Notes: a model not told the origin generated them from the sequence alone. DNA of 64,000 nt from Candidatus Woesearchaeota archaeon (GCA_018302815.1 JAGVZE010000009.1:56149-120148), one strand, 5' to 3'. Positions 2,072-55,328 are shown, numbered from the stretch's first letter. Made by a program: numbers and translations.

Positions 2072-2078
2072 ACTAGAA

Positions 2079-4833: not shown

Positions 4834-5014
4834 TTAAACGGCAAGACAGAGGTAGGAAGTAGGACGGACGACGGATGAACGTAGGATGGAAGACTGCGGG
4901 ACGGAAGGATAGCTTATGAACAGCATAACTACTTACTTTCGAACCACCGCGTTACAGACTTACAGCCAATCACAAACCGTCACATTTATAAACCACCCCT
5001 TATCCAATCAGACT

Positions 5015-5209: not shown

Positions 5210-5217
5210 TTTTCTGC

Positions 5218-5232
5218 AAACCTTTTTATACG
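5218..5232 (+). promoter_or_regulatory. putative archaeal TATA box/BRE upstream of the tRNA
   Basis: 'aaacctttttatacg' lies about 28-35 nt upstream of the tRNA 5' end at 5258, the usual spacing for archaeal promoters. Confidence 0.4.
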
Positions 5233-5257
5233 CTCATAGATGAGTTTCTTTTCAAAC

Positions 5258-5371
5258 GGGCCTGTAGTCTAACGGATAGGATACAGGGCTTCGGACAGCG
5301 CCCTGCGATGATATGAGCACAAGCGTTGGCTAAGACACCCTGCGGTCTGGGTTCGAATCCCAGCAGGCTCG
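5258..5371 (+). tRNA. tRNA-Arg(TCG) with a 42-nt intron at the canonical 37/38 position
   Basis: The acceptor stem GGGCCTG/CAGGCTC pairs with one G-U. The T-arm is CTGGG-TTCGAAT-CCCAG. The anticodon loop is CTTCGGA (U33, anticodon TCG, purine 37). An approximately 42-nt insertion (5295-5336) lies between position 37 and the 3' anticodon stem CCCTG and can form a hairpin, consistent with a bulge-helix-bulge intron. No encoded CCA. Confidence 0.65.
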
Positions 5372-5372
5372 T
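5355..5372. repeat. attL: tRNA 3'-end core sequence 'gaatcccagcaggctcgt'
   Basis: This 18-mer recurs at 18608-18625. A 16-nt subset recurs at 18480-18495, and a 10-11 nt core recurs at 19559-19569. Confidence 0.7.
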
Positions 5373-5433
5373 AGTAATTTTTCTACTAATACCACAGGAA
5401 GGTTTATAAGCAACGCATCGACCCAGACCCGCC

Positions 5434-6717
5434 ATGAGACCATTTATCGACCAAAACAAGCGAGTCACCCAAAACCTCACCAGCCTACAAAAAAACGAAG
5501 CCATCAGCCCACAAAACAAGAAAGAGATAGCAGACATGGCTCGCAAGATGTCAAGCGAAGGACTCGCACCCGCAAGCATCGCCAAGTTCATAACGACATT
5601 CCACAACGGACTCGACAAGTGCGCACCGCCCAATTTCAACATGGCGAGCGCAACAGTAGATGAACTGCGCGAGTTTATCATCAACATCCAAAAATCAAAG
5701 TACAGCATCAAGACACAAGCCGAGATAAAGAAAGCCATCAAGAAATACTACAAGGGCAACGATAAGGAGCACCTTGTCAAATTCTTCAAGACAAGCATTC
5801 CGCAAAGCAAGAAGACAGTTCCCAACGAGGGAGATATGTTGACTCTAGAAGAGGTTGAGCGAATGATAACTGCTTGCAAAAATACCCGTGACAAGGCTAT
5901 CATCTCTCTCCTTGCTGAAAGCGGTATGAGAATAGGCGAGCTTGGCGCGCTTCAAATCAAACACGTCAATTTTGACAATCATGGCGCGGTTATCACAGTT
6001 CCTTCTGGAAAGACAGGAGCTAGGCGCATTCGTGTAGTTCAGTGTGAGCGTCACTTGCGTCAATGGTTGATGGACCACCCACACAAAGATAACGATGAGG
6101 ATTGGTTGTGGATAAACTTGAACGCAAGCCAGAAAAGCGCGCTCTATGATAGAATGGATTACGAGTGTATCCGCATGATGATTGTTAAGAAAGCGATAGA
6201 CGCGCAAGTTAGAACATACAAAGTACGAACTGTTGAAGATAAGAAGAGTCATAAACTTAGAGATGTTTATCGTACAAAGGTTCACCCGCACTTGTTCAGA
6301 CATACTGCCGCGACTCGGCTTGCCAAGTTTATGACTGAGCAACAACTCAAGATTTATCTTGGGTGGACTGCGGGTAGTGATATGGCGAGCGTGTACGTTC
6401 ACTTGTCTGGTAAGGATGTTGATGATACCGTGTTGAAGATGAACGGGTTGCAACCAATGGAAACGCAGGTTGAGAGCGTGCGGTGTCAGGCTTGTGGTAG
6501 GATGAATGCGTCTGAGAGTTCTTCTTGTAACACTTGTTTTAGACCTTTGAGTGTTAAAATGGCTTTGGTGAATGAGGAGCGTGAGAAGCACGCTTCGAAA
6601 GTTTTGGAAGCTATCATGTCAGGTGAGTTGAGTGTTGAAGAAATCAAGGCGTTCACATCAAAGCAGAAGAAAGCGAAAGTTTTTATCGAGCAACCAACTA
6701 ACGAGGGGTTAGTATGA
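5434..6717 (+). CDS. int: tyrosine recombinase/integrase
   Basis: 'HLFRHTAATRLA' is the HxxR box and '...ASVYVHL' the catalytic Tyr region. 'ESGMRIGELGALQ' is the Arg-I region. The C-terminus carries a CxxC...CxxC zinc-ribbon extension. Located next to a tRNA. Confidence 0.85.
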   Translation: MRPFIDQNKRVTQNLTSLQKNEAISPQNKKEIADMARKMSSEGLAPASIAKFITTFHNGLDKCAPPNFNMASATVDELREFIINIQKSKYSIKTQAEIKKAIKKYYKGNDKEHLVKFFKTSIPQSKKTVPNEGDMLTLEEVERMITACKNTRDKAIISLLAESGMRIGELGALQIKHVNFDNHGAVITVPSGKTGARRIRVVQCERHLRQWLMDHPHKDNDEDWLWINLNASQKSALYDRMDYECIRMMIVKKAIDAQVRTYKVRTVEDKKSHKLRDVYRTKVHPHLFRHTAATRLAKFMTEQQLKIYLGWTAGSDMASVYVHLSGKDVDDTVLKMNGLQPMETQVESVRCQACGRMNASESSSCNTCFRPLSVKMALVNEEREKHASKVLEAIMSGELSVEEIKAFTSKQKKAKVFIEQPTNEGLV

Positions 6718-6880
6718 AGAAAGAAATGCCTGTTTTGAATTTGAGACTGCTCGGAAAGACTTTCCGAATTTTCACATACGAAACATTGATGCGCAGGAAC
6801 AAACTCTGAACTTTGTATGGGTAGCTCGCAATAAAACGCTGACATAAGTATATATTTCAAAGCCCTTAACAGTTTGATAC

Positions 6881-9800
6881 ATGGTTGTTCCCAGTCTCCA
6901 GAATTATTCTATTGAGCGTTTGAATAAAGAAATCGCTCAGAACCAGCAACTTATCAGTGAATTACGAGGTCGTGCTGGTCAAGCTAAACGGATTGAGGGC
7001 GCGTCAAAAGGAATTCAACTTCTCCAACTTGAACTTACTTCTCGTCAGATTCAGCAACAGGCGGACGAAGGCATTATTTCTCAAGCTCAAGCTTCGGGTT
7101 TGATACAAGCTAGAGCGTCCAGCACACAAGCGAGTACGAAGCAAGCACCACTAAGCCCTTACGAACGCGCATTCGGACCCGCCAGCTTAACACGACAAGC
7201 AATATTAGCAAAGCCAACAGCACTGCAACAATTAGGCGGTGCGCCGTCACAAATCCAATTCCAAACCATCCCCCGAGAAGTGACATACAAAGTTGGAGAG
7301 CGATTCGGCGAACCAGTCCTAGTCACGCGAAGAGAACAAGCAACGCAAGCACTCCTGCCGTTCGGCAAACTTCAATTCGGCATTCCAGCAAGCCTAGCAT
7401 TCAGCCAAAAAGCACAGCTTGAAGGCATCCCCACCATCACAGACACCAGAGGTATCACCTTAACCGAACAGGGCGAGTTACGCGCTCGCCCAACAACTCG
7501 TTTCGAAAGCCAAACAGAAAAACAACTCCGAGAACAAGTACCGATGGCAAACCGAGCAGTGTTCGAAGCAGACATAACAAAAGAACCTCGCATTCCAGCA
7601 CGAGTCTTAACAGAAACAGAACAACGCGCACTCTTCGCGCCAGCATTCCAAACCAAAGCGAGCATACTAAGCCCACTACTCCAACGACGAGTGGAAGAAC
7701 TTTCACAACCAGAAACCCAACGACCATCCCCTTTCATAGAGCCAACACCAGAAGTGGGGTTGAGTTTTGATTTTCAAAGACAAATACTTGCAAGCCTGCC
7801 TCGACTTGTTGAGCAAACCGCGCAAGAACAAGGCATCACTCCACTCACCAAGTTCACTCGTAAAACTGATTTTTTCAACGCAAAAGAGTTCGGTGGTGAA
7901 ATTCGAAGCATCAGCGAAGAAGTAAATAAAGCCGTTGATTTTGAAAAACTCCTCGCGAAAGCAGGCATCAAAACATCAATACCAAGCAAGGCGATAAGTT
8001 TTGAAGAGTTCAAACTCGTCCCCCTCGTCAAAAAAATAACTCGACCAGAAGAAACTCGACAAAAGCTTCTCAAAGACATTGAGCAAACAGAAAAACTATC
8101 ACCTGCTCTTGCTAAGATAGAACGAGCGTTTGCAGATATTGAGTTCGGAGCGAGAGAGTACGCGAGCAGACCCAGCAACATAGCACTGACCGCCCTTACT
8201 GGTGGAGCGTTCGGACTTGCAGAAAAAGGCGCGCTGGCTGGACTGACTATTTTCAAAGGCGCAACACAAGCCGAAAAAGCGATAAGTAACATTAACAAAA
8301 TACTTCTTGGAGCAACAGCAGGACTTGAAGGTTTACGCATAGCGACAAGCAAGAAGCCTTTTGAAGAAGTCGGAGCCTTGCCATTCAAGCTCATCGCGTT
8401 TGGCGCAGGAGCACAAGCGACGAAAACACTTCTCACACGACAACCTTCAAGGGTTCAAGTTGGTGAGACTTTAATTTTGGAAAAACAAACCATTCCAACA
8501 AGCGAAGGACTGGTTCAAGTCCGAGGAACAGCTATCACTCCTGCTAAAATAACTAGAGTCAGCCCGATAGAAAAAATGTTGACAGACTTACGGTTCAAAC
8601 TCGAAGTTGGAAAAACAGAAGAGTTCAAAATCGTCCGACAGTTCAAAGGAGAAATCAAAATTGCTCGAGAAGAAAAAGTTGACTTGTATGGAGGTGGCAA
8701 AATCGTAAGTGAGAACTTGCGAATAGCAAAAGTCAGCGCGGAAATATTCTCGCAAAACTTGAAAGGCGAACTCGCAAAGTTCGCAGAACAATTAGCTGTT
8801 ATAACCTCATCAGGTCCGTCGGGAGCGAAGGCGTTAGGACAACTAAGAATTCGACGAGTGCGAAAAGGAAAACTCACGCAGAGCATTTTTGAACAAATCG
8901 CGGACATCCAACCATCAGAGATAGGGGGGGTTAGGGTTGTTACTGGAACTGCGAGGCTTCCAGCGATAAAAGGAAAAGTCAGGCGAGAACAGCCTTTCTT
9001 TGAAATTGGCGCGGTTGAAAAGTTCAAACCGCCAAGCCGTCAAAAAATTACTGACATTTTCGAAACAAACATTCGAGAACTGGCAGACAATCTTGACGCG
9101 AGCCTAAGAACTTTAACATTGAAGGAGACACCGCCGCGCAAGCCGTCCAAAAAAACAGTTGAAGAACTATTATCAATACTCCCTCAAGAAAGAGTTTTTT
9201 TCCGTGCGCGAAAAAGAGAAATAACGGCACGACAATTAGAAAAACGTTTCAAAGGAGCCGTTGTTAAACTCCCAAGTAAAGGAGCTTTCAAAGACGCATT
9301 AACTAGAGCGTGGGGCAAAAAAGGACAGTTCATTTTAGGACAGCCGAGTCGCATATCGACAGGCATCAGTCCACGCCCTGCGATAGAACCTGAATCGTTG
9401 AAAGTGAGCATTGATAGAGCACTCTCGCCGTTCCGAACGTTTCAAGTCCCGAAACAAGCTCTTTCACTAGCGTTCGAAAGAGATGTTAGTTTCACCACGC
9501 TCGCGCCAACACAAATTGAAAGAATAGCTCCTTCCAGACTAGCTGAACTTCCCAGACTGCAAACTCGAACGCTTCAAGATGTTGGAACTCAAACTGGTAA
9601 CGCTATCGCAACAATCGTTCAAGGCTTGGAAAAAACTTTGACAGGAACCAAGCCAATAGAAGGCATCAAAATTAAGACGATAACAGGACCGACAGCGCGA
9701 CCGATAGAAATAACCACGCCAGTCACAGGCGCAGGAACAGGAACCACTCCAGCCACAACGCCAAAAGAAGGAACAACCCCCAGACCACGAGGCGAGACAG

Positions 9801-43798: not shown

Positions 43799-44032
43799 TT
43801 ATTTTTTATACCATTTTTCAAAATCTTCTCTTGTAATTTTCAATTCTTTCTTGATGATTCTCGTGAGCAAACCCGGACCTATTTCCTCTTTCGCATGAAC
43901 CGGAATCACCACAATCTGACCGTCAGGTCGTTTTAGAATATGATGACTGCCCTCCACACGAGCGAGAGTAAAACCTTGCTTCAGAAGAATTTTAACGAAC
44001 TCGCTCCCCTTCAACCTAGGAAGCTTTGCCAC
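43799..44032 (-). CDS. hicA: HicA-family mRNA interferase toxin
   Basis: 'LKGSEFVKILLKQGFTLARVEGSHHILKRPDGQIVVIPVHAKEEIGPGLLTRIIK' is a canonical HicA/YcfA sequence. Confidence 0.8.
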   Translation of the reverse strand: MAKLPRLKGSEFVKILLKQGFTLARVEGSHHILKRPDGQIVVIPVHAKEEIGPGLLTRIIKKELKITREDFEKWYKK

Positions 44033-44033
44033 C

Positions 44034-44240
44034 TTAAACCTCTATCGCGGCAATCTCCACAAATTTATGCTGAGAACTATCTTCCTCAACCACTGCAAGA
44101 TATCCCGTAATCGCCTCTTTAATACGAACAAGAAGCTCCTTCTTAGTCTTCGCCTGAGTATAGCAACCCGGAAGCTCCACTACCTCCGCCACAAACCATC
44201 CGTCCTCATCCTGCTCAATCACAATATTGAATTTTGCCAT
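44034..44240 (-). CDS. hicB: HicB-family antitoxin
   Basis: 'NIVIEQDEDGWFVAEVVELPGCYTQAKTKKE' is a HicB/UPF0150 N-terminal fold. It lies 1 nt upstream of hicA. Confidence 0.75.
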   Translation of the reverse strand: MAKFNIVIEQDEDGWFVAEVVELPGCYTQAKTKKELLVRIKEAITGYLAVVEEDSSQHKFVEIAAIEV

Positions 44241-44297: not shown

Positions 44298-45023
44298 CTA
44301 ACGCGCAAGAACCACTAATGCATCACGCCAAGAAGTCCTATCAAGCTTGAATCGAGCATCGATGTACAAAGTTGTGTAAGGTTCATCCACATCCAACCTC
44401 AACACGCGGGTTCGCAGACTACGCGGACACGTAGTCATCAATGAATCCGAAACACCATAGAGATCGCGCACTTTTCGCGCCAACTGCACAGAACAGACGC
44501 GTTCAACAATAGGAACACGAACTTCTTCAAGCGGAGACGAGGCAGCTCTTGAAAGACGAACCCCCTCACTTGCGCAGTCCACTCCTTGAGCAAGAGGAGT
44601 GTAACCGTTCCTTGCTATCAATTCATCGCACACAGAAATAATATCAAAATGCATCAACTCAAACCTTCCAGAATACCTCACCGCAGAACAAGTATCAATA
44701 TAGTCAGACTCACACACCCTGTGAGCAGATTCGCACCGTCCACTCGTAAGTGCCTCGAGCGTCTCAGCCAAACTTAACGGCCGATATCTTCCGTTCACGA
44801 ACGGCTGAGATTCTGAAGCAACCGACTGCAAACCATCAATCATAAAACCATACGAATACTTCTCAAGAGGAAGACGCACAACCTCATACGAAGAAACAAC
44901 CCGCGCGTCAAAAGGAGCACTCTGCCCCGCACGCTTACGCGCAACACGCAGGCGAATGCCATCATCACGAGCGCCGGACTCGCTGAACCTGCGCTCCAAA
45001 TCACGAAGACGAGAATCGCTCAT
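44298..45023 (-). CDS. hypothetical protein, paralog family 1 (N-terminal MSDSRLRDLERRFSES)
   Basis: 241 aa. The N-terminal ~35 aa resemble those of the adjacent 265-aa gene. 4-nt start/stop overlap with it. Confidence 0.45.
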   Translation of the reverse strand: MSDSRLRDLERRFSESGARDDGIRLRVARKRAGQSAPFDARVVSSYEVVRLPLEKYSYGFMIDGLQSVASESQPFVNGRYRPLSLAETLEALTSGRCESAHRVCESDYIDTCSAVRYSGRFELMHFDIISVCDELIARNGYTPLAQGVDCASEGVRLSRAASSPLEEVRVPIVERVCSVQLARKVRDLYGVSDSLMTTCPRSLRTRVLRLDVDEPYTTLYIDARFKLDRTSWRDALVVLAR

Positions 45024-45817
45024 TGGGAATCACCTGCTGGTTTCCTAATTATTGTTCCCGCAGGAAAACGGAAGCGAATATTTCGCACATGCTCAAAAGC
45101 CACATCATTCTGCCGTCCCGGAGAAACAACCGCGCACGCAATAGAACCCTGGACGGCAAGATCAAAATAATCCACCATAAACGGAAAAGATTCTCCAAAA
45201 TGCTGCACGCTCAACTCGTCATAAACATTAAAGAATTCTCTCCGAAGAGCGCGATCCTTAACTTGCATTGAATATACATAGTTATCCGGAAATGAGCCCA
45301 TGAACGCAACCTTCCCACCCAACTCCTCACGCGCATCCCCCCTTAACCTCGCACAAGAGCCAGCAAGAGATAGATGATTATAAACCAGCCCGCACAAAGC
45401 GTCCGACCCCGGCACCAATTCTGCTCTTTGAAAACAATCAGCAGTCAACCAATACGACCTGCTCCGGCCAAAAACAGAAACAACAGAATCACGAGCGGAC
45501 GAATTGTAACCCTCAACAACAGAACGCATCAATTCCTCTAAAGTCAACAACCGTGGAACAAGCTGCGAGCCATTGAAAATGTGCGGATGCACGCACTGCC
45601 CTGCAAGCTCGCTTTCAACACGCGCGATAAGAGCGGAAACATTCGGACCGCAATAATCATCAGAGCCCGTCTCAATCAAATCCAACTCCCAACCAGAACC
45701 AATAACCGGAACATCATTACCAACACGGACACACTCCCGCGCATAACGCTCGAAGTCCGCTTTAGCACGGCTTTCTTTCCACGCTCTTTCAAGCTCACGA
45801 AGACGCTCGTCGCTCAT
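45020..45817 (-). CDS. hypothetical protein, paralog family 1 (N-terminal MSDERLRELERAWKES)
   Basis: 265 aa. Shares the N-terminal leader with the 44298..45023 gene and with the plus-strand array at 48530-50654. Confidence 0.45.
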   Translation of the reverse strand: MSDERLRELERAWKESRAKADFERYARECVRVGNDVPVIGSGWELDLIETGSDDYCGPNVSALIARVESELAGQCVHPHIFNGSQLVPRLLTLEELMRSVVEGYNSSARDSVVSVFGRSRSYWLTADCFQRAELVPGSDALCGLVYNHLSLAGSCARLRGDAREELGGKVAFMGSFPDNYVYSMQVKDRALRREFFNVYDELSVQHFGESFPFMVDYFDLAVQGSIACAVVSPGRQNDVAFEHVRNIRFRFPAGTIIRKPAGDSQ

Positions 45818-46305
45818 CTGGCACCGCTGAAATCGTGAAGCACCACGACAGGCCTATCTCCTGCCTTGAGAAGGACCAGCTCATCATCTACATCGACTCC
45901 GAGCGTCTTTACCTCGCGGCACTTTTTGCCCCATGAATCACAGTACTCGGCAACGACAGGAATGTCTTGAACCTTCAGCTCTCGTTTGATAGCATTGAAA
46001 TGACTTTTCGCTCCACCTGTAACAACCGCCCTCACACTATCCAATGAAGACTTCCTGCCCAATCTTTCAAGAACCTGAGGAATGTATTCCTTTGGATGCA
46101 GATAGGACAAATCATAATGTGAAAGCGCGACAGCATCAGGCGCTATCAAAACCAGACCGTTGCAATCCAAATAACCAGAAGAATACAACGAACCTGACCT
46201 CACCGCCAGATGGTCAAGATACACCACACGATCACGCCTGAAATCGCCAAGCTCAGAAAGACGCGCATCCAAATCAGTCGTTACACTTTGCATCTCACTC
46301 ACCAC
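45814..46305 (-). CDS. hypothetical protein (operon member)
   Basis: 163 aa. 4-nt overlaps on both sides. Confidence 0.45.
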   Translation of the reverse strand: MVSEMQSVTTDLDARLSELGDFRRDRVVYLDHLAVRSGSLYSSGYLDCNGLVLIAPDAVALSHYDLSYLHPKEYIPQVLERLGRKSSLDSVRAVVTGGAKSHFNAIKRELKVQDIPVVAEYCDSWGKKCREVKTLGVDVDDELVLLKAGDRPVVVLHDFSGAR

Positions 46306-47213
46306 CCAAACATCCGCCCTAACCAGCTCTTCTTTTTTCCGGGTCCACCCCAGATAGTCGCAGCTTGCGCATCAGACATGACCTCGAATCGCGGCGCGTC
46401 ACGTACCCCGCGAGAGGCCCCGTCGCCGTAGACGCCGTACCTGCTGCCGAAGCCGCTGACGCTGAACCTGTAGTCGCCGCGGGCAACAGGCCACGCAACA
46501 CCATCTGACGGCAAGTATACGTGAACCTTTTTGTTGCCTTCACGCATTTCTGTTGGAAGCTGATCAAAACGTCGTCCACAGAGGAACTGGACGAAATAAG
46601 GTCTGAACTTGTCAAGTCCAACCCATTGACCAGATGTGATTCCATTAATATCAAAAGAACATTCTCCTGAATAACCGAAATTCTGTTTATCGTACTTAAT
46701 TCCAGTCCAAACCAGACCAACAGGATCAAGATAGCAAACGAGCAGTTCTCCTTTTCTTTCAAAAGCAAGACTCAACCACTCGCCATGGCCAGTACTCATA
46801 TCAGCGCTGACCTTCGACAACTCCCCGTTGAGTTTTCCTTCAAGACCATCAATAATCAAGCCAAACGCCTCCTGAGGCCTTGCGTGCCGCTCGAATCCCG
46901 CTGCGCGCAGACGTTCAAGACTTTCATCGAACGTCAGAATGTCTTTAGTTTGTTCATTTTGCGCTCGATACGCGCGCGACTCGAAATCGACCCGCTCGTA
47001 TGAACCAACACTCACCACACTCTCAATGCCATCATCCTTCAAATTCTTCAACGGTTTCTGCGCAGCACCTGTTAACCCCTCAAGATACTCGCTCTTACAC
47101 AACGCATGATAAGGAACACTCTTTATCAAACCAACGAGGTCATCATCAGTGATTTTCGTCCTGCAAAAACCGCACAAATCAAACCGCGTACCGCCGAATT
47201 GGATGTCAGACAT
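46299..47213 (-). CDS. hypothetical protein (operon member, starts MSDIQFGG)
   Basis: The start is taken at the internal Met (MSDIQ), 2 nt after the stop of the upstream gene. The listed ORF (46299..47282) would overlap that gene by 77 nt. About 304 aa, rich in Gly, Trp and Tyr in the C-terminal part. Confidence 0.45.
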   Translation of the reverse strand: MSDIQFGGTRFDLCGFCRTKITDDDLVGLIKSVPYHALCKSEYLEGLTGAAQKPLKNLKDDGIESVVSVGSYERVDFESRAYRAQNEQTKDILTFDESLERLRAAGFERHARPQEAFGLIIDGLEGKLNGELSKVSADMSTGHGEWLSLAFERKGELLVCYLDPVGLVWTGIKYDKQNFGYSGECSFDINGITSGQWVGLDKFRPYFVQFLCGRRFDQLPTEMREGNKKVHVYLPSDGVAWPVARGDYRFSVSGFGSRYGVYGDGASRGVRDAPRFEVMSDAQAATIWGGPGKKKSWLGRMFGW

Positions 47214-47748
47214 TTCTCTCACCCAACGCGTCATTTCGCTCTTTTGCCCACGCGCGATATTTGTTCGCCTCGTCAAAAGCACCTGAGAACTCCTGCTTGG
47301 ACTTTTCTAGCTGCGCATTCAAATCACGGCTTATGAAATACGCAAAAACGCACTGAACGTATGCGGCAGGAGGAATCGCCAAGCAAAGAAACTTATTCAC
47401 CATACGCTGCGAAAGTTCGGGTTTTGATGCATCCGCTCCTTTGGCTGCAGACTCAATCCCCCTGCATTCATCAAGCGCAGAATCAAGATACCCTTTTGCA
47501 ATATCATCCACTGCAGAACATTTCTCCACAGTTATCTCTTCAGAAAGCTTCCCTGCCCGCTCGCATAGTGAATCAAGCTCGCCACGGCACCCAGCCATCG
47601 AATTGCCAAGTAAAGCATCACTTACCAAAGAAACCACAAGACCACTCGCATGAAAACGCAAATCACCAAAATAATCCCACAACGCAAAAGTCAACGCACC
47701 GGCGAATACATTGCCCAACAGAACGTAATTCGACTGAAAATCGCTCAT
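47206..47748 (-). CDS. hypothetical protein (operon member, starts MSDFQ; hydrophobic N-terminal segment)
   Basis: 180 aa. 'YVLLGNVFAGALTFALW' may be a TM or amphipathic segment. 4-nt overlap with the nfi stop. Confidence 0.45.
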   Translation of the reverse strand: MSDFQSNYVLLGNVFAGALTFALWDYFGDLRFHASGLVVSLVSDALLGNSMAGCRGELDSLCERAGKLSEEITVEKCSAVDDIAKGYLDSALDECRGIESAAKGADASKPELSQRMVNKFLCLAIPPAAYVQCVFAYFISRDLNAQLEKSKQEFSGAFDEANKYRAWAKERNDALGERNV

Positions 47749-48416
47749 AGCTCCTCAACAATCTCTTCCTTTAGCTGCGGGTTTCTTCGCTCTTCTGCGG
47801 CTTTTTTCGCGAATCTGTGCGCTACGTGCAAAGGCTCAGGAAGCTTGTGCGGAGGAATCACCATCTTAAGAATTATTTTAGCTGCAACGTCCATTGGAAT
47901 TATGTTGCCGGTCGAGACGTAAAGCGCATTCGCGTGCTCTTTTGTCTTCACCGCTTTTCCAACCTTCTCGCCGTTCATAATTATGAAGCCGTCTTTCTCT
48001 TCGCATTCAATTAGGCTTTTGGCGATGCCGATAGTAGGCTTTGCGAGTTCGACGCCCACAAATGTCGCAGGACCGCAATTCATCGGATGAGCGATGCCGT
48101 GGCCATTGATGATGATGACATCAGGATCGTATTCCAGATCGTAATAAAGTTGGCAGATTATCGGACCTTCTCGAAATGCTGCGAAACCAGGAACATAATT
48201 CATCGGAGCTTTTGCAACGAGAAACTTGCGCTCCTTTACTTCCAAAGTTTTGTAATCAAGAACTGCGGCAGCGCATATGCACTCCTTGCCAAAGAAAATA
48301 GTCTCAAAGCCCGCGATGTATTTGATACCCTCTTCCTTGAACTCATCATCCACAACTACTTTGGATGCGACTTCAATCTGCGAATGCTTTAGATTGCCAA
48401 AATCAGGTTTTATCAT
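47745..48416 (-). CDS. nfi: endonuclease V (deoxyinosine 3' endonuclease)
   Basis: 'YVPGFAAFREGP', 'INGHGIAHP' and 'PTIGIAKS' match the endonuclease V catalytic motifs (DGxG.xHPR and PxIGVAK). Confidence 0.8.
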   Translation of the reverse strand: MIKPDFGNLKHSQIEVASKVVVDDEFKEEGIKYIAGFETIFFGKECICAAAVLDYKTLEVKERKFLVAKAPMNYVPGFAAFREGPIICQLYYDLEYDPDVIIINGHGIAHPMNCGPATFVGVELAKPTIGIAKSLIECEEKDGFIIMNGEKVGKAVKTKEHANALYVSTGNIIPMDVAAKIILKMVIPPHKLPEPLHVAHRFAKKAAEERRNPQLKEEIVEEL

Positions 48417-48529
48417 TGAGCCACCCTTTCTTTACGAAGGAATCTCAAAAAGCAGTATATAAAGCTTTCTATTTGTATTTACTGCCAAGTGGCGAAATGT
48501 TTAAATGCGGATGCGGAACTCTTCAAGAC
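48417..48529. promoter_or_regulatory. divergent promoter region between the nfi operon and the paralog array
   Basis: A 113-bp AT-rich spacer with 'tatataaag' (48459-48467) and 'tttaaatg' lies about 25-30 nt upstream of each divergent start. Confidence 0.35.
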
Positions 48530-49208
48530 ATGAGCGACGAACGATTCAGAGAGCATCAACGAGCGGTTGATTCAGGAGATATGAACGCGCTGCCAAGCCT
48601 CATAACAGAAGCAGTACGCACCAGCACGCCAATCTACAAATACGCAGGAAGAATACTCTACAATCTAAACGACAACGTTGTAAGACGCACCGCGAGTAAC
48701 GAGGGCAGACAAAGCTATCGCCTCACTCGAAGTTATCCTCATCAACAATCTCATCACACACGTTCCTAGAAGCGATCGTTACCACCTTGTTAAAGCAAGC
48801 TGCTTTTGGAGCGAAGTATTCAACAGCACATTCATCATACGAGGACTCCCCCTTCGACAAATAACAAACGGAGAACTACTTGGAACAGCCGACATAACTC
48901 CTTACTTTAGCAGAGCGAACGAAGATGCGCAAAAGCATCCGCAAGATAGAACAATACTTGTCTACAACAATAAAACAAACGCCACTCCCTGCCACTTTTT
49001 TGGACTCGAGCGCGATGCGGTCATAATTGATGAACTTCACAAAGATGGAAGAATCCACCCACTAATGATGACTGTTGGAAGAAGAACTCAACCTTTCTCA
49101 CTGACTGCATCACCCCGCCAAAATTACACGGCCATCGCCCTAACCACCAAACACGCCGAACACATACTCGGAAATCCGAACGTATTCGACTTTGAGGGAA
49201 TATTATGA
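48530..49208 (+). pseudogene. paralog family 2, copy A (frameshifted)
   Basis: The N-domain 'MSDERFREHQRAVDSGDMNALPSLITEAVRTSTPIYKYAGRILYNLNDNVVR' is in frame 1, which stops at 48769. The homologous body and the conserved C-terminus '...TKHAEHILGNPNVFDFEGIL' continue in the +1 frame to 49208. Confidence 0.5.
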
Positions 49209-49866
49209 GCGACGAGAAATTCAGAGAGTATCAACGAGCAGTTGATTCAGGAGACATTGAAGCGCTGCCAAGCCTCATAACAGAAGCAGTACGCACCAGC
49301 ACGCCAATCTACAAATACGCAGGAAGAATACTCTACAATCTAAACGACAACGTTGTAAGATCACAGACAAAGTCATTCCATCGCTTGAACTCAACCTAAT
49401 CAACAACGCAGTCGTACGCCCTCCGGGATACGAATACGTCCATGCAGTCAAAGCGAGTTGTTTTTGGAGCAGCGTATTCGACTGCCGTTTTCTAATCAGA
49501 GAAACACCTCTTCGCCAAATGGCAAATGGCGCTCGGATCGGCACATTCGATATCAGCCCATACGGCAACCGAGCGAGCGCTGATGCAAATAAACCTGCGC
49601 AGGAAAGAGCAGTTCTCGTGCACGGCAAAAAGACCCCAGACACACCCGGACTGTTCTTTGGCCTTGAACATAATGCACTAACAATCTCAGATGTTCGAAA
49701 AGACGGCACAGTCCATCCACTCACAATACATTTGGGAGAATCACGCCAGCACTACACCCTATATTCATCCAACAATCGAAATCAGACCGCAATCCCCCTC
49801 ACAACCAAACACGCCGAACACATACTCGGAAATCCGAATGTCTTTGATTTCGAGGCGATAAAATGA
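49205..49866 (+). pseudogene. paralog family 2, copy B (frameshifted)
   Basis: The N-domain is 98% identical to copy A. Its frame stops at 49399. The body, homologous to copies A and D, continues in the -1 frame (listed ORF 49519..49866) and ends '...TKHAEHILGNPNVFDFEAIK'. ATGA overlaps lie at both junctions. Confidence 0.5.
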
Positions 49867-50654
49867 GCGATGCGGAGTTCAGAAAATACGAACGCGCGGT
49901 GAACGAAGGAGATATCGATGCCATACCTCAATTAATCACTGCGGCGCTAAGAACAAACACGCCGATTCACAAGTATTTACCAACGATAAATGACAATCTA
50001 AACCAAAACGTAATCAGAACGCTCGAAGGAAGCGAACTTATGGATTTGAGAATGTATCGCGTGCATTCCATCCCTGAAGCCGCAGCGATACTCGAACGCT
50101 CAGGAAGAGTGTTGCCGTCGCTTGAAATTATCGCGCTCAATCACGAGATAACCGGATTTGCCGGAAAAGAAAACTCAGACATCCTCATGAAAGAGAGCAT
50201 CGTAAGATTCGACGTTCCATATTTTGTGAGAGCCTCGCACATTTTCAGATTGGCACACGAACAGGGAATACGGGGCACTCATGAAGAACTAATTGAGCGC
50301 ATGTCAACATATCAAGCTTTAACAGCCGCTCAAATAGAGAGAACACGATGCACAAGGTCCATCTCACAAATTCTCCAAACCGCAACCAGGCACGAACTAT
50401 CACAGCTATACGAACTATCACAATTATTCTTGATCGACCAATCGATGCGCGTCACCCTTGAAATAATTTATCCTTATCGCCAAGAAGCGCACACCAACCC
50501 ACACGAGCAACACATATTCGTTCGAAAAATTGCAGAACATATCGAATGCCAGTCCAACCCGTTCATCTTCAACGAGGCCCTCATGATCCCGACCGTCAGC
50601 CCAAAAGCTGAACACATTCTTGGCAATCCGAACGTGTTTGAGTTCCCTGAATAA
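49863..50654 (+). CDS. paralog family 2, copy C (intact, 263 aa)
   Basis: A single frame holds the N-domain 'MSDAEFRKYERAVNEGDIDAIPQLITAALRTNTPIHKY', a body homologous to copies A and B ('RVLPSLEIIALNHEIT' versus 'DKAIASLEVILINNLIT'), and the C-terminus 'KAEHILGNPNVFEFPE'. Confidence 0.5.
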   Translation: MSDAEFRKYERAVNEGDIDAIPQLITAALRTNTPIHKYLPTINDNLNQNVIRTLEGSELMDLRMYRVHSIPEAAAILERSGRVLPSLEIIALNHEITGFAGKENSDILMKESIVRFDVPYFVRASHIFRLAHEQGIRGTHEELIERMSTYQALTAAQIERTRCTRSISQILQTATRHELSQLYELSQLFLIDQSMRVTLEIIYPYRQEAHTNPHEQHIFVRKIAEHIECQSNPFIFNEALMIPTVSPKAEHILGNPNVFEFPE

Positions 50655-50719: not shown

Positions 50720-51127
50720 TTGGTCATGCGATATTATCTGGACACTTCAATTTGGCTCGACTATTATGAAAAAAGAGGAAAGAATGGAGAAGAGGCCGTA
50801 AAACTCATACTTAAAATAATGGAAAGACAGAGGGTTGTTTGTTTTTCTGATTATCACACCATAGAGTTAAAGCGTCTAAATTACAATCTTGAGCAAATAG
50901 CTGAAATGCTCAAAATTGTAAAACCTCACCTGCTCAGAAGAATACACCTGCAAAGACACCACTTTAGGACCTCACGACAACTTGCGTCTCAACGCTCAAT
51001 TCCTCCAGGAGACGCCCTGCATGCCTTGCTTGCTAAAGAAAATGACGCCACACTAATATCAAGAGACGCTGATTTTGAAAAACTCAAAGACCTCTGTGAA
51101 ACAAAGAAACCAGAGAATATTCACTGA
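50720..51127 (+). CDS. PIN-domain protein (VapC-like)
   Basis: 'YYLDTSIWLDYY' is the N-terminal PIN motif. '...DALHALLAKENDATLISRDADF' is the C-terminal PIN segment. Confidence 0.7.
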   Translation: MVMRYYLDTSIWLDYYEKRGKNGEEAVKLILKIMERQRVVCFSDYHTIELKRLNYNLEQIAEMLKIVKPHLLRRIHLQRHHFRTSRQLASQRSIPPGDALHALLAKENDATLISRDADFEKLKDLCETKKPENIH

Positions 51128-51375
51128 AATTGTTTTTCAAGCTCCTCAAACGCTTCCTCGCGCGCCTTATGCAGCTCCTCATCGGTCGTCTTCCTGTTCG
51201 ACGCGCCGTACATCTTGTACACTCTTTGGCGCGCCTCTTCAAGCTCGAGCTGTTTTAACTTATCGCGCATCGCCTCGCGGATGAATTCAGTCTTTGTAGT
51301 ATAGTGATGCTTCTTGATTGCCTTCTCAACGCTATGCGCGAACTCCTGCTCTAATTTCAAACTAACAGTTTCCAT
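51121..51375 (-). CDS. ribbon-helix-helix (CopG-like) protein, convergent with the PIN gene
   Basis: 'METVSLKLEQEFAHSVEKAIKKHHYTTKTEFIREAMRDKL' follows the RHH pattern. Its 3' end overlaps the PIN gene's 3' end by 7 nt on the opposite strand. Confidence 0.55.
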   Translation of the reverse strand: METVSLKLEQEFAHSVEKAIKKHHYTTKTEFIREAMRDKLKQLELEEARQRVYKMYGASNRKTTDEELHKAREEAFEELEKQFQ

Positions 51376-52733: not shown

Positions 52734-52982
52734 TCAATCATAGATATTCTTGCGGTGGCCGACCTCAATCACCAAAATCAAAAGGCGTTGATGTTCAAGA
52801 TCCGCGATAACGCGATAATCTCCCACGCGCAAACGATATGTCTCTTTGCCAACAAGCCTTCTAAGAAAAGCTTGCGGACGCACCCTTATCCTCTCAAGCG
52901 CAGCACTTATCCGCAACTGAACAGAACGTTCAAGCTTCTCAAACTGCTTTAACGCAGAATCAGAAAACACCATAGAATACAT
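52734..52982 (-). CDS. relE: RelE/ParE-family toxin
   Basis: 'SDSALKQFEKLERSVQLRISAALERI...YRLRVGDYRVIADLEHQRLLILVIEVGHRKNIY' is a canonical RelE/StbE sequence. Confidence 0.75.
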   Translation of the reverse strand: MYSMVFSDSALKQFEKLERSVQLRISAALERIRVRPQAFLRRLVGKETYRLRVGDYRVIADLEHQRLLILVIEVGHRKNIYD

Positions 52983-53200
52983 CAGAGCTTGAGCCTCTTC
53001 TTTACCTGCTCAAAAGTGTGAACCTTGCCCAGCTTTATCTCCTCACGTGACTTCTCCATCGATCTTTTTGTCTCCTCGCTCAACTCCTGCGTATCCTCAA
53101 TCAAATCCCAAATCACATCCTCAAAGCTCTCATTCGAGAAAAGCTTACGCTTCTCGAGCTTTTTATGCAGTTCCTCGGATATCTGTATCGTCGTTGCCAT
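52982..53200 (-). CDS. putative antitoxin of the RelE pair
   Basis: 72-aa acidic protein directly upstream. Its stop overlaps the toxin start by 1 nt. Confidence 0.5.
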   Translation of the reverse strand: MATTIQISEELHKKLEKRKLFSNESFEDVIWDLIEDTQELSEETKRSMEKSREEIKLGKVHTFEQVKKRLKL

Positions 53201-53282: not shown

Positions 53283-55328
53283 ATGCAACTCAACTGGGTG
53301 AACATTCACAACATACGAAGCTATACAAACGCCCGAATAGAATTCCCAACAGGCATTGTCATGCTATCAGGAGACATCGGCTGCGGAAAAAGCACTATAC
53401 TGCAAGCGATAGAATTCGCGCTTTTCGGGCTCTTGCGCGCGGAATTATCAGGAAACTCCCTGCTTCGAAACGGCGCTCTCAACGGCAGCGCAGAATTATG
53501 CTTTTCAATCGGACCAAACAAATACATCATAAAGCGAACCCTCAAACGCGGCAAAAGCGTCGAACAAGACGCAGGATACCTCATCACTAACGACGTCAAA
53601 CAAGAAGCCACAGCCACAGAACTAAAAAGCAAAATCCTCGAACTGCTCGGCTACCCTGAAGACCAACTCACCAAAGCCAAAAATTATCTTTATCGATACA
53701 CAGTCTACACCCCGCAAGAAGAAATGAAACGCATAATCCTTGAAGAAAATGAGCAAAGAGTGTCTCTTCTTCGAAAAGTCTTCGACATAGACAAATACGC
53801 GCGCATAAAAACCAACGCCGCGACATACGCCAAAGCCCTTCGCGAAAGAAAACGCGCATTCGAAGCTGCCAGCGCAGACCTTCCCGAAAAAAGAAAACAA
53901 GCCGAACAATGCGAACACGAACTCGCCATTTGCGACAAACAACTAAAAGAACTCGCGCCGCAGCTCTCAATATCAAAAGACTTTCTAATAAAAGCCAAAC
54001 AAGACATTTTGGAACTTGAGAACAAACGCTCGCAGGCGGAAAACACTTTACGCGAATTCCACGTCAAAAAAACACAACTCGCATCCAAAGAACAACAGCA
54101 GAACGCAGTGTTATCTGATCTAAAAATCCTAACTGAACAAACAGCGACAATACCTGAACAAACACCCATTGAACAGCCAATCGCGCCCGCACTCCAATCC
54201 ATCCAAAAAGATATCCTGCTAAAAGAGGCGCAGCTTCGCAGCTCCACGATCAAAACAACGGAATTCACAACGCTAAAAAAACAGGCAAGAGAAAGCTCGC
54301 AAAAAATCATCAGCCTCGCGCAATGCCCGACCTGCCTTCAGACAGTCAGCGACGGACACAAACACTCCATCATCTCAAAACAAGAACAAACCATCGAAGA
54401 ATACGACTCACACATTTTAAACCACAAAAACGCAACACAAGCCGCTGAAAAAGAGCTGAGCGAACTTAAAACCAGGCTTGAGGAATTGCGAAAACAGGAA
54501 AGAGACTTCGCAGTCAATTCTGCGCGAGCAAAACACAAAGAGCAGTTGACTGTCAGAAAAACAATGCTCGAAAGCCAACACTCAATCATCTCACAAAGCA
54601 TCCAAACCTTGCGCCAAGAAACAATACTGCTCGAACAGCAGACAAAACTTAACACTGAACTTACCAACACATATGAAACTGCCAGAAAAACACTTGACGA
54701 CGCAGGAGCGCTTGAACGCTCCCTTAGCATACAGCACGCGGGACTCTTCCAGAAAAAAGAAACACTTTCAAGAACTTTGATAATCCACAAAATAGACATA
54801 GAACGCAAAGAAAAAGCCATAGCGCAGCTCGATACGACAAACAAACGGCACTATTTTGTCACAGACTACTTCACGCCCCTGCTTGACATAATGGAAAAAC
54901 ACGTCATGGCGAGAATCCACCACGAATTCGACGCGCTATTCCAACAATGGTTCGCAATGCTCGTAGAAGACCTGATGACCGCGCGATTGGATGATACGTA
55001 CACGCCAATAATCTCGCAGAACGGATACGACACCGAAGTTGAAAACCTGAGCGGAGGAGAAAAAACAGCGTGCGCACTCGCATACCGCCTCGCATTGAAC
55101 AAGACAATCAACTCGCTCATTTCAGGAATAAAAACAAAAGACCTGCTGATACTTGATGAACCAACCGATGGATTCTCAGCAGAACAGCTAGACAAACTGC
55201 GCGATGTGCTCTCGCAGCTGAACCTCAATCAAATCATCATCGTAAGCCACGAACAAAAAGTTGAGGGCTTCGCTAACCAAGTCATAAGAATTCGAAAAGA
55301 GAATCACCAGAGCATCATCAGCGCTTGA
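53283..55328 (+). CDS. Rad50/SbcC-like ATPase with coiled coil and CPTC zinc hook
   Basis: 'VMLSGDIGCGKSTILQAIEFALFG' is the Walker A. The long coiled coil has a central 'AQCPTCLQTV' zinc hook. 'LSGGEKTACALAYRLAL' is the signature motif and 'LLILDEPTDGF' the Walker B/D-loop. At 681 aa it is short for an archaeal Rad50. Confidence 0.75.
   Translation: MQLNWVNIHNIRSYTNARIEFPTGIVMLSGDIGCGKSTILQAIEFALFGLLRAELSGNSLLRNGALNGSAELCFSIGPNKYIIKRTLKRGKSVEQDAGYLITNDVKQEATATELKSKILELLGYPEDQLTKAKNYLYRYTVYTPQEEMKRIILEENEQRVSLLRKVFDIDKYARIKTNAATYAKALRERKRAFEAASADLPEKRKQAEQCEHELAICDKQLKELAPQLSISKDFLIKAKQDILELENKRSQAENTLREFHVKKTQLASKEQQQNAVLSDLKILTEQTATIPEQTPIEQPIAPALQSIQKDILLKEAQLRSSTIKTTEFTTLKKQARESSQKIISLAQCPTCLQTVSDGHKHSIISKQEQTIEEYDSHILNHKNATQAAEKELSELKTRLEELRKQERDFAVNSARAKHKEQLTVRKTMLESQHSIISQSIQTLRQETILLEQQTKLNTELTNTYETARKTLDDAGALERSLSIQHAGLFQKKETLSRTLIIHKIDIERKEKAIAQLDTTNKRHYFVTDYFTPLLDIMEKHVMARIHHEFDALFQQWFAMLVEDLMTARLDDTYTPIISQNGYDTEVENLSGGEKTACALAYRLALNKTINSLISGIKTKDLLILDEPTDGFSAEQLDKLRDVLSQLNLNQIIIVSHEQKVEGFANQVIRIRKENHQSIISA

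What the first reader, a model, noticed from the sequence alone, without database searches (positions are those of the whole stretch)
44298..50654. An N-terminal MSDE(R/K)(L/F)RE(L/Y)(E/Q)RA leader is shared by genes on both strands of the locus
The minus-strand paralogs start MSDERLRELERAWKES and MSDSRLRDLERRFSES. The plus-strand array genes start MSDERFREHQRAV, MSDEKFREYQRAV and MSDAEFRKYERAV. The downstream parts of the two families are unrelated. A common 12-13 residue leader on otherwise different proteins could be a shared targeting, secretion or partner-binding peptide, which would suggest a polymorphic effector/immunity-like organisation.
Basis: seen in the sequence. Interest (0 to 1): 0.6.

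Follow-up and report, generated by a model that had tools for sequence, protein, structure and literature searches.

The report
Shared N-terminal helical hairpin module
Five neighbouring genes of a Woesearchaeota (DPANN archaeon) genome start with the same ~33-residue two-helix hairpin. This hairpin is an uncatalogued module that also heads hundreds of unrelated, often tandemly arrayed proteins in Planctomycetota, large uncultured phages and other archaea, and its function is unknown.

Summary
The motif MSD..[LF]R..[EQ]R occurs exactly five times in the six-frame translation of the 64-kb window. Each occurrence sits at an ORF start between 44.3 and 50.7 kb, against 0.00 expected from shuffles.

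The shared element is longer than the 12-13 residues reported. It is a ~33-residue helix-turn-helix hairpin, highly charged, with no signal-peptide character.

A profile of it finds 94 proteins among 1.84 billion at E<=1e-3. About 80% of these match from residue 1, and their bodies are unrelated (Ank, LRR, SUKH, FGE-sulfatase, zinc ribbons, mostly orphans). A profile built only from 59 external members recovers exactly the five window sites (E 5e-15 to 2e-10; next best 0.68).

No Pfam, NCBIfam, PHROG or PDB entry covers it. The nearest resemblance is TPR/Sel1-like and does not reach membership.

Hairpin genes recur in tandem arrays elsewhere: 6-7 in a row in archaeal contigs, pairs in Planctomycetota, and at least 6 in one 245-kb viral contig.

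- The two minus-strand genes share only the hairpin.
- Two of the three plus-strand genes are disrupted by deletions here.

Most likely role (inferred): an autonomous docking or oligomerisation handle on diversifying proteins. A secretion-signal role is unsupported, and an immunity-array reading remains untested.

The parts
45020..45817 (-). A1, 265-aa orphan protein; hairpin = residues 1-33 (45719-45817)
   Evidence: ORF. External-profile hit E 4.7e-15. Only one homologue, at 97% identity, among 5.8 billion clustered proteins. No Pfam, PADLOC, PHROG or NCBIfam hit. ATGA stop/start overlap with the upstream gene.
44298..45023 (-). A2, 241-aa orphan protein; hairpin = residues 1-33 (44925-45023)
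   Evidence: ORF. Profile hit E 6.5e-14. Shares only residues 1-37 with A1. Orthologue in L002 at 50% identity.
48530..49208 (+). B1, first gene of the plus-strand array, disrupted. The hairpin and 52-aa N-module are in one frame and the C-terminal ~170 aa in another. 64-nt deletion after 48685.
   Evidence: Intact orthologue L006:1981-2721, 246 aa. Profile hit E 3e-12.
49205..49866 (+). B2, second array gene, disrupted by a 92-nt deletion at the same 5' boundary. Its 64-aa remnant is the NCBI protein J4219_04345.
   Evidence: Intact orthologues P0007/L006:1235-1984, L007 and L048, 249 aa. Profile hit E 7.5e-12.
49863..50654 (+). B3, intact 263-aa array gene; hairpin = residues 1-33 (49863-49961)
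   Evidence: The predicted model is poor overall (mean pLDDT 39.8); only the first two 10-residue blocks (residues 1-20, mean pLDDT 74 and 78) are well supported, the third block (residues 21-30) averages 63, and helices are placed at 3-14 and 18-31. hhalign of the external hairpin profile against the B family gives prob 96%, E 2.3e-9, columns 1-40.
48530..48685 (+). 156-nt 5' module repeated at 49205-49360 (94% identity) and 49863-50018 (62%)
   Evidence: the repeat finder family D1. The high B1/B2 identity ends exactly at the deletion points.
50607..50644 (+). Conserved 3' motif of B genes (AEHILGNPNVFEF), also at 49155-49192 and 49813-49850
   Evidence: the repeat finder family D2. Conserved C-terminal tail across the B family.
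45814..47748 (-). Context: three orphan genes of the same translationally coupled minus-strand operon. M180 (47206-47748) is a probable membrane protein by inspection of its hydrophobic N-terminal stretches. D is the ORF 46299-47282, with its probable start at MSDIQF. C163 is 45814-46305. None carries the hairpin.
   Evidence: D, C163 and A1 are replaced by a different hairpin protein (X264) in relative L002.
47745..48416 (-). Context: endonuclease V gene (nfi). It heads the minus-strand operon and is divergent from the B array. It is a conserved anchor in relatives.
   Evidence: Pfam PF04493, E 1.5e-46. Synteny in L002-L004, L006 and L007.

Best explanation
The shared 'leader' is a small autonomous protein module: a ~33-residue N-terminal alpha-hairpin.

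Anatomy:
- Helix 1 is roughly D3-E15, followed by a Gly turn at position 16.
- Helix 2 is roughly residues 18-31, ending in R30-x-G32 and often followed by Pro.
- Consensus: M-S-D-x-R-L-R-E-L-E-R-[RA]-[WVA]-x-x-G-[DA]-x-x-[AD]-x-x-x-[LYW]-[LIV]-x-[EA]-R-x-R-x-G.

The module belongs to a widespread family that has no curated database entry. During evolution it has been joined to many unrelated protein bodies. It is found in Planctomycetota and other bacteria, in large uncultured phages and in DPANN-type archaea. Genes carrying it tend to lie in tandem, translationally coupled, fast-diverging arrays.

In this Woesearchaeota locus it heads two unrelated orphan proteins on the minus strand (A1, A2) and a three-gene array on the plus strand (B1-B3, two of them disrupted here).

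Proposed mechanism (inferred, not shown): the hairpin acts as a protein-protein association handle. One option is pairing with the hairpin of a co-encoded sibling to give a four-helix bundle, which would be favoured by its N-terminal position and by co-translation from coupled genes. The other option is docking on a common, widely conserved partner. The variable bodies would supply the specific activity.
For: Shown:
1. Non-chance, locus-restricted occurrence in the window.
2. One family. The exhaustive profile search returns 94 proteins at E<=1e-3 of 1.84e9, and about 80% of them align from their residue 1. Both local variants have external counterparts: the A-type turn W-x-E-S-G/R-A and the B-type turn A-V-x-x-G-D. 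P0061 combines an A-like hairpin with a B-family body. hhalign of the external profile against the B family gives prob 96%, E 2.3e-9.
3. Bodies are unrelated. A and B show no similarity beyond the hairpin. Among the 87 remote hits scanned (the hits other than the window's own close relatives), Pfam domains are all different and each is seen once or twice: Ank, LRR, SMI1_KNR4, FGE-sulfatase, DUF6884, GGACT, Roc and others.
4. Two helices are predicted.
5. Selection acts on the protein, not the DNA. The motif is kept in loci whose GC content ranges from 36% to 78%.
6. Arrays recur: 6 of 7 genes in L009; 7 in L013; pairs in L008, L010, L029, L021, L030, L031 and L039; 2-3 in viral L042-L044 and L046; 7-8 profile hits (at least 6 distinct genes) across the three loci L043-L045 of one 245-kb UViG.
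7. Some long proteins repeat the hairpin internally, before each successive domain (P0012, P0015, P0017, P0024, P0038).

Inferred:
- The association role follows from the conserved polar stripe D3/R7/E10/R11/R30 combined with a single hydrophobic stripe L6/L9/W13.
- A 33-residue hairpin is too small to be stable alone (general protein-structure knowledge).
- No conserved non-hairpin gene is shared between arrays.
Against: - No experiment or complex prediction supports any binding partner.
- The AlphaFold models are poor overall (mean pLDDT 40 and 34). Only the first ~20 residues of B3 reach pLDDT above 70.
- In the B family, and in many Planctomycetota proteins, the hairpin runs straight into further conserved helices. 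There it may simply be the first element of a helical domain.
- D3, R7 and R11 were partly fixed by the regular expression used to pick the 59 sequences for the conservation table. Their invariance is therefore overstated. L9, G16, R30 and G32 were not selected for.
- The source genome outside the window could not be scanned directly.
Confidence: 0.5

Rival explanations
1. The hairpin is only the best-conserved structural piece (an N-terminal TPR-like capping helix pair) of one huge, fast-diverging superfamily. On this view the bodies are homologous but unrecognisable, and the N-terminus has no separate function.
For: - The B family has a conserved all-helical N-domain of ~125 residues continuous with the hairpin.
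- Many bacterial members continue with 'LELAAYLGHPAA' helices.
- Scattered sub-threshold TPR hits and partial matches to Sel1-repeat proteins.
Against: - Bodies include clearly different folds with their own Pfam families: LRR, Ank, SUKH, FGE-sulfatase, GGACT and zinc ribbons.
- The hairpin ends in a conserved R-x-G, with Pro in about a fifth of sequences at each of two positions shortly afterwards, which looks like a domain boundary.
- It recurs before successive different domains within single long proteins.
- A1, A2 and B bodies show no similarity.
Confidence: 0.25
2. The arrays are immunity-like or antitoxin-like repertoires of a polymorphic conflict system. The hairpin would be a hallmark of the cytoplasmic immunity proteins.
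For: - Tandem, rapidly diverging arrays with gene-content differences between close strains.
- The B family has conserved ends and a hypervariable middle. Invariant positions are 65% for residues 1-125, 11% for 126-241 and 62% for 242-262.
- The locus is flanked by HicAB, PIN-RHH and RelE-type toxin-antitoxin pairs.
- Single remote members carry SUKH-1, Ank or LRR, or have sub-threshold Imm5-like/DUF6931 matches.
Against: - No toxin, nuclease, Rhs, PAAR or other effector domain in or beside the locus. Nothing in PADLOC.
- Bacterial hairpin genes mostly sit among ordinary genes, as judged by crude ORF inspection.
- The immunity-type domains are single cases among 87 proteins.
- For: one array protein neutralises a neighbouring toxic gene product.
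Confidence: 0.15
3. The hairpin is a targeting or packaging tag that sends diverse cargo to one machine. Candidates are secretion, a protein compartment, or virion packaging, by analogy with microcompartment encapsulation peptides or the T4 capsid-targeting sequence.
For: - Position exactly at residue 1 on unrelated cargo encoded side by side.
- Several copies in large viral contigs.
Against: - Highly charged, with no hydrophobic core.
- No shell, capsid or secretion genes detected in the window. One search lists only the top 25 of 51 families, so absence is not proven.
- It occurs in phyla and viruses that share no secretion or compartment system.
- It also occurs internally in long proteins.
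- For: N-terminal cleavage, or enrichment in virions, vesicles or host cells.
Confidence: 0.1
4. Chance resemblance of amphipathic helices, or a DNA-level effect such as local gene conversion or a shared translation-initiation element.
For: - ATGA stop/start overlaps explain the shared ATGAGC (Met-Ser) codons.
- B1 and B2 5' modules are 94% identical at DNA level, consistent with gene conversion within the array.
Against: - 0.00 matches expected in shuffles.
- The external profile separates the five sites from everything else by more than 9 orders of magnitude in E-value.
- A-type and B-type leaders are only 75% identical over 36 nt, and each matches a different global subtype.
- No Rfam element in the region.
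Confidence: 0.02

Closest known systems
TPR / Sel1-like repeat (Pfam TPR clan; PF08238 Sel1)
   Same: A helix-turn-helix unit of ~34-36 residues with a small residue or Gly at the turn. The leader profile partially matches Sel1-repeat proteins in several stretches (P0009, P0016, P0068). A few hairpins give sub-threshold TPR hits.
   Different: - A single copy at the extreme N-terminus rather than a solenoid.
- A conserved charged stripe D3/R7/E10/R11/R30 that is absent from TPR/Sel1 consensus.
- No window protein reaches any TPR/Sel1 score, even at E 0.1.
- hhalign against Sel1 repeats aligns only 17 columns, prob 26%.
TIGR02996 'repeat-companion' domain of Planctomycetota
   Same: A short (~45 aa) helical N-terminal module. 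From my own knowledge of the NCBIfam entry, it is present in many paralogues per genome in Planctomycetota and is fused to variable C-terminal repeat domains. This is the same lifestyle and partly the same phylum.
   Different: The sequence is unrelated. In P0013 TIGR02996 lies downstream (residues 56-97) of the hairpin (residues 1-35), so they are distinct modules. It is not present in the window proteins.
Shared N-terminal targeting peptides (bacterial microcompartment encapsulation peptides; phage T4 capsid-targeting sequence of internal proteins)
   Same: A short N-terminal helical element shared by otherwise unrelated proteins encoded in one locus. The T4 internal-protein locus is also hypervariable. 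The comparison rests on my own knowledge of these systems.
   Different: Two helices of 33 residues rather than one amphipathic helix of ~10-18. No shell or capsid genes seen nearby. No evidence of cleavage.
Polyimmunity arrays of polymorphic toxin systems (SUKH, Imm families)
   Same: Tandem arrays of small, divergent, cytoplasmic proteins. One hairpin protein carries SMI1_KNR4/SUKH-1, and one has a sub-threshold Imm5-like match.
   Different: No associated toxin gene or toxin domain in this locus. No window protein matches any Imm or SUKH model.

Membership tests
Uncurated 'MSD-x-RLRELER' N-terminal alpha-hairpin family (defined here by profiles A4/A8) | Significant match to a profile built only from members of other organisms | tested here: met
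   All five window sites score E 4.7e-15 to 2.1e-10, with the next hit at 0.68. The B family against the external profile gives prob 96%.
Uncurated 'MSD-x-RLRELER' N-terminal alpha-hairpin family (defined here by profiles A4/A8) | Located at the very N-terminus (profile position 1 = Met1) | tested here: met
   All five window sites start at the ATG. The same holds for about 80% of the 94 global hits and nearly all hits in fetched loci.
Uncurated 'MSD-x-RLRELER' N-terminal alpha-hairpin family (defined here by profiles A4/A8) | Two helices joined by a Gly-containing turn | tested here: inconclusive
   AlphaFold places helices at 3-14 and 18-31 in B3 and at 2-14 and 16-30 in A1. Only residues 1-20 of B3 are modelled with confidence (block means 74 and 78; 63 for residues 21-30), and the A1 model is low-confidence throughout. 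No solved homologue.
Uncurated 'MSD-x-RLRELER' N-terminal alpha-hairpin family (defined here by profiles A4/A8) | Fused to unrelated bodies and found in tandem arrays | tested here: met
   Bodies. Arrays.
TPR / Sel1-like repeats | Score at or above the Pfam gathering threshold for a TPR-clan model | tested here: not met
   No TPR or Sel1 hit for A1, A2 or B3 at E<=0.1. Isolated hairpins give only scattered hits with E >= 0.002 in 7 of 59 sequences.
TPR / Sel1-like repeats | Profile-profile similarity over the whole repeat unit | tested here: not met
   hhalign gives prob 26% over 17 of 36 columns.
Sec/Tat-type signal peptide | Hydrophobic h-region after a short charged n-region | tested here: not met
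   10-17 of 33 residues are charged. GRAVY is -0.49 to -1.25. The best 9-residue hydropathy window is -0.2 (A-type) to 1.6 (B-type).
Polymorphic toxin / immunity system | A toxin gene with a recognisable toxin or trafficking domain adjacent to the candidate immunity genes | tested here: not met
   No such domain in A1, A2, B3, C163, D or M180 with Pfam, PADLOC, PHROGs or NCBIfam.
Polymorphic toxin / immunity system | Tandem, rapidly diversifying cassettes with strain-to-strain content variation | tested here: met
   Array order and content differ between the window, L002, L004 and L006. D, C163 and A1 are replaced by X264 in L002.
Compartment or capsid cargo with a targeting peptide | Shell or capsid genes in the same locus | tested here: inconclusive
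   None appear among the Pfam families reported for 62 window ORFs, but only the top 25 of 51 families were displayed.
Diversity-generating retroelement target (considered because of the clustered SNPs) | A template repeat matching the variable patch, plus a reverse transcriptase nearby | tested here: not met
   Neither variable patch has a second copy anywhere in the window. The substitutions are of mixed types rather than one recurring base change. A reverse transcriptase was not specifically searched for.

The most novel reading that the evidence does not exclude
The hairpin is a cross-domain 'address tag'. Phages, Planctomycetota and DPANN archaea would each maintain diversifying arrays of hairpin-tagged proteins that are all recruited, through this one handle, to a single conserved cellular target or assembly. 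That would make it a previously unrecognised class of conflict or host-interaction system. In the DPANN case it could bear on the symbiont-host interface or on virus defence.
Probability: 0.12. Interest if true: 0.75.

Novelty: new variant of a known kind. Interest (0 to 1): 0.45.

Why it matters
Short autonomous modules that head many unrelated proteins usually mark a shared partner or pathway, as docking domains, targeting peptides and immunity scaffolds do.

This one is absent from Pfam, NCBIfam, PHROGs and the PDB as searched here. Yet it is found from DPANN archaea to Planctomycetota and large uncultured phages, and it marks tandem, fast-evolving gene arrays made almost entirely of orphan proteins.

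Defining it does two things. It gives a handle for annotating hundreds of 'hypothetical' proteins. It also gives a concrete, testable entry point into a class of hypervariable loci in organisms that cannot be cultured: what does the hairpin bind?

Tried and rejected
Searches that found nothing useful:
- Word-indexed homologue searches. A1 has one near-identical relative, B3 has four, and the leader alignment returned only the 64-aa B2 remnant.
- Pfam, PADLOC, PHROGs and NCBIfam on all locus proteins gave nothing significant. PHROGs and Pfam on isolated hairpins gave nothing or only weak TPR and coiled-coil noise.
- PDB sequence searches with the hairpin profile and with the B-family profile gave nothing significant.
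- Full-text literature search for the motif strings returned only irrelevant hits.
- tblastn of hairpin sequences against cultured-phage and plasmid collections found no match.

Analyses too weak to use:
- AlphaFold2 of B3 (4-sequence alignment) and of A1 (single sequence) gave mean pLDDT 40 and 34. This is too poor for fold searching.

Ideas considered and set aside:
- DGR-type hypermutation as the cause of the clustered SNPs: no template repeat was found.
- An RNA element: Rfam finds nothing in the region.
- A partner gene shared by the window locus and other hairpin arrays: none found.
- Crude ORF inspection around the bacterial hairpin genes (no domain scan) showed nothing toxin-like.

Full report
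**Setting.** The window is an ordinary chromosomal stretch of a DPANN archaeon.
- It encodes ribosomal proteins L21e, S12 and S3Ae, eIF2-gamma, ArgRS, ribonucleotide reductase, SepF, endonuclease V and a probable Rad50-type ATPase (by inspection of the 681-aa ORF at 53283-55328).
- The 64-aa ORF at 49205-49399 is identical or nearly identical to the NCBI protein 'J4219_04345 [Candidatus Woesearchaeota archaeon]'.

**Gene order around the finding.**
- HicA/HicB, 43799-44240 (-)
- A2, 44298-45023 (-)
- A1, 45020-45817 (-)
- C163, 45814-46305 (-)
- D, 46299-47282 (-)
- M180, 47206-47748 (-)
- nfi, 47745-48416 (-)
- B1, 48530-49208 (+); B2, 49205-49866 (+); B3, 49863-50654 (+)
- PIN and RHH, 50720-51375
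- A conserved 160-aa gene, a ZPR1-like zinc-finger gene (by inspection), a RelE-like pair and the Rad50-type gene follow.

Most gene junctions on both strands are ATGA stop/start overlaps, which indicates translational coupling.

All five are at ATG starts and all lie in 44.3-50.7 kb.
- The degenerate DNA version gives 5 matches against 0.00 expected in shuffles.
- Aligned, the similarity runs over ~33 residues rather than 12-13. S2, D3, R7, R11 and R31 are invariant across both strands' genes and their relatives.
- AlphaFold places two helices there: 3-14 and 18-31 in B3 (block mean pLDDT 74 and 78 for residues 1-20, 63 for residues 21-30, and the only usable part of an otherwise poor model), and 2-14 and 16-30 in A1 at low confidence.

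**Corrections to the description.**
- A1 and A2 align only over residues 1-37, at 46% identity. They are not demonstrable paralogues.
- A1 shows a weak extended similarity (28% over 121 aa) to X264, a different hairpin protein. In relative L002, X264 occupies the place of D, C163 and A1.
- B1 and B2 are broken in this window. Intact orthologues of 246 and 249 aa exist in three other assemblies (L006, L007, L048).
- The window copies lack 64 and 92 nt respectively. Both deletions begin directly after GTTGTAAGA (...NDNVVR), which is also where the 94%-identical 5' module of B1 and B2 ends.
- The B family has a conserved N-terminal ~125 residues (65% invariant positions among four orthologues), a hypervariable middle (11%) and a conserved C-terminal tail ...AEHILGNPNVFEF (62%).

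**What is the shared element?** An exhaustive HMMER search with a 36-position profile of the eight available N-termini against 1.84 billion representative proteins gave 94 proteins at E<=1e-3.
- All hits below E 1e-10 except one Sel1-repeat protein (P0009, a partial multi-stretch match) are genes of this locus or its orthologues.
- The rest are a coherent set. About four in five align from their own residue 1 and read MSDxRLRELERRW[KR]E[ST]GAxxDEAAYLxERVRxG or MSDxxLRxLERAxxxGDxxAxxxLxxxxxRxG. These two variants mirror the local A-type and B-type.
- Lengths run from 38 to 1710 aa. Bodies are unrelated: single cases of Ank, LRR, SMI1_KNR4/SUKH-1, FGE-sulfatase, DUF6884, GGACT, Roc and Phage_L5_gp82, and mostly nothing.
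- A few long proteins repeat the hairpin internally in front of successive domains, usually after an RRNPD-like linker.
- An HMM built from 59 of these external N-termini, with no window-lineage sequence, recovers exactly the five window sites (E 4.7e-15 to 2.1e-10; next 0.68). It also aligns to residues 1-40 of the B family at 96% probability.
- P0061, a distant B-family member, carries an A-like hairpin.
- The A and B leaders are therefore two variants of one old, transferable module. They are not a product of recent exchange within the locus: their DNA is only 75% identical over 36 nt.
- The motif is conserved in loci whose GC content ranges from 36% to 78%, so selection acts on the protein.

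**Is it a known family?** Not in the libraries available.
- Pfam, NCBIfam, PADLOC and PHROGs have no model that matches it in the window proteins, in the 87 remote hits scanned, or in isolated hairpins.
- No PDB sequence matches, and the motif strings do not occur in the searchable literature.
- The nearest resemblance is to TPR/Sel1-type helix pairs. Sel1-repeat proteins are partially hit, but profile-profile comparison gives only 26% probability over 17 columns. Pfam TPR hits are scattered and sub-threshold.
- I therefore treat it as TPR-like in shape but not as a member of that family.

**Distribution and arrangement.**
- A codon-restricted DNA pattern for the A-type start found 30 loci in one-genome-per-species contigs. 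Seventeen are Planctomycetota, often with several loci per genome. Others include a Woesearchaeota MAG (L029), a MAG labelled Methanosarcinales (L013), a Pseudobdellovibrionaceae MAG and a few likely chance hits.
- The same pattern found seven stretches in IMG/VR, three of them from one 245-kb viral contig.
- Scanning all fetched loci with the external HMM showed extra hairpin genes next to the seeded ones. There are 7 in L013, 6 of 7 consecutive genes in L009, and pairs in L008, L010, L029, L017, L021, L030, L031 and L039. Viral loci L042, L043, L044 and L046 hold 2-3 each.
- Tandem, same-strand, often overlapping arrays of hairpin genes are thus a general property. The window locus is one instance of it.
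- The archaeal arrays of L009, L013 and L029 form a further body family unrelated to A or B.
- No non-hairpin gene is shared between these arrays and the window locus.

**Locus dynamics.**
- Between the window and relatives with ~80% nucleotide identity in nfi, the conserved frame is nfi-M180 on one side and the 160-aa gene on the other. The hairpin genes change in number, order and type.
- A 99.58%-identical contig (L001) differs at 20 positions. Ten lie in A1 codons 158-198 and six in D codons 252-265, including a premature stop.
- No repeat of either patch exists in the window.

**How it most likely works.**

Shown:
- The element is a conserved, charged, N-terminal two-helix segment joined to unrelated bodies.
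- It has no hydrophobic core, so it is not a Sec/Tat signal.

Inferred:
- The conserved residues form a polar stripe (D3, R7, E10, R11 on helix 1; R30 on helix 2) and one hydrophobic stripe (L6, L9, W/V13; L/Y24, L/I25). There is a Gly at the turn and R-x-G at the end, with Pro in about a fifth of sequences at each of two nearby downstream positions.
- A 33-residue hairpin is unlikely to be stable alone. Such units normally bury their hydrophobic stripe by pairing with a second hairpin, giving a four-helix bundle, or by docking on a partner.
- Hairpin genes are co-encoded and translationally coupled, and the hairpin emerges first from the ribosome. Sibling-sibling association, or docking on one common and widely conserved partner, is therefore the best-supported mechanism.
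- I put about 0.9 on the identity statement (a real, widespread, autonomous-looking module) and about 0.35-0.4 on the association mechanism.

**Rivals.**
- The hairpin may be merely the conserved N-cap of helical bodies. This is plausible for the B family and many Planctomycetota proteins, but hard to reconcile with the LRR, Ank, SUKH, enzyme and zinc-ribbon bodies and with the internal repeats.
- The arrays may be immunity-like repertoires. Hypervariability, the flanking toxin-antitoxin pairs and single SUKH/Imm5-like cases fit this. No toxin was found.
- It may be a targeting or packaging tag. The N-terminal position and the phage copies fit this. No machinery was found, and the composition is wrong for secretion signals.
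- Chance or a DNA-level effect is excluded.

**Novelty and value.** The kind of thing, a short helical association module heading variable proteins, is familiar. This particular family appears uncatalogued. It spans archaea, bacteria and phages and marks arrays of orphan genes. I rate it a new variant of a known kind, of moderate interest. It would rise considerably if a common partner or a conflict function were demonstrated.

Noticed in passing
window 48686 and 49361-49365 (B1, B2): Both disrupted array genes carry deletions (64 nt and 92 nt relative to L006) that begin at the same point, right after GTTGTAAGA. That point is also the end of the 94%-identical 5' module. Intact versions exist in L006, L007, L048 and P0008. 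This could be real decay or gene conversion, or an assembly artefact.
   Followed up: partly
window 45225-45346 (A1 codons 158-198) and 46488-46529 (D codons 252-265): Against a 99.58%-identical contig (L001), 16 of 20 differences fall in these two short patches. They are mostly non-synonymous, and one is a premature stop in L001's D gene. No template-like repeat was found in the window. The cause is unexplained; a recombination tract or strain-chimeric assembly is possible.
   Followed up: partly
window 44298-50654: Every ORF in the 64 kb that begins with (or has a plausible internal start at) MSD lies in this locus. This includes M180 (MSDFQS...) and D (MSDIQF...), which lack the rest of the hairpin. 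Six of the seven share ATGAGCGA, partly explained by ATGA stop/start overlaps.
   Followed up: partly
window 43799-44240, 50720-51375, 52734-53200: Three toxin-antitoxin pairs (HicAB, PIN+RHH, RelE-like plus antitoxin) flank the hairpin locus. The PIN+RHH pair is absent from the equivalent position in relatives L002-L004, where the B array is followed directly by the 160-aa gene.
   Followed up: partly
window 5258-5371 (+): Rfam reports a tRNA (50.7 bits, full model matched) spanning 114 nt, which is probably intron-containing. ARAGORN found no tRNA in the window.
   Followed up: no
L013 (CAYXXT010000030.1), 600-7700: A contig binned as 'Methanosarcinales archaeon' carries a run of at least 7 tandem hairpin genes homologous to those of Woesearchaeota SURF_65 (L029) and L009. 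This suggests mis-binning of a DPANN contig, or horizontal transfer.
   Followed up: no
L043-L045 (IMGVR_UViG_3300017971_000001, 245 kb): One large viral contig holds at least six hairpin-headed small genes at three separate places. Another viral contig of 275 kb (L041) holds one hairpin gene in the fetched stretch.
   Followed up: no
window, elsewhere (not located): Pfam families Resolvase, Phage_integrase and DUF5906 were reported among the window's ORFs, so a mobile element may lie elsewhere in the 64 kb. Their coordinates were not determined.
   Followed up: no
L009 7312-7476 and L029 5025-5414: The same small zinc-ribbon protein (MSGFICPDC...) follows the hairpin arrays in two independent archaeal contigs. 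No homologue is present in the window.
   Followed up: partly
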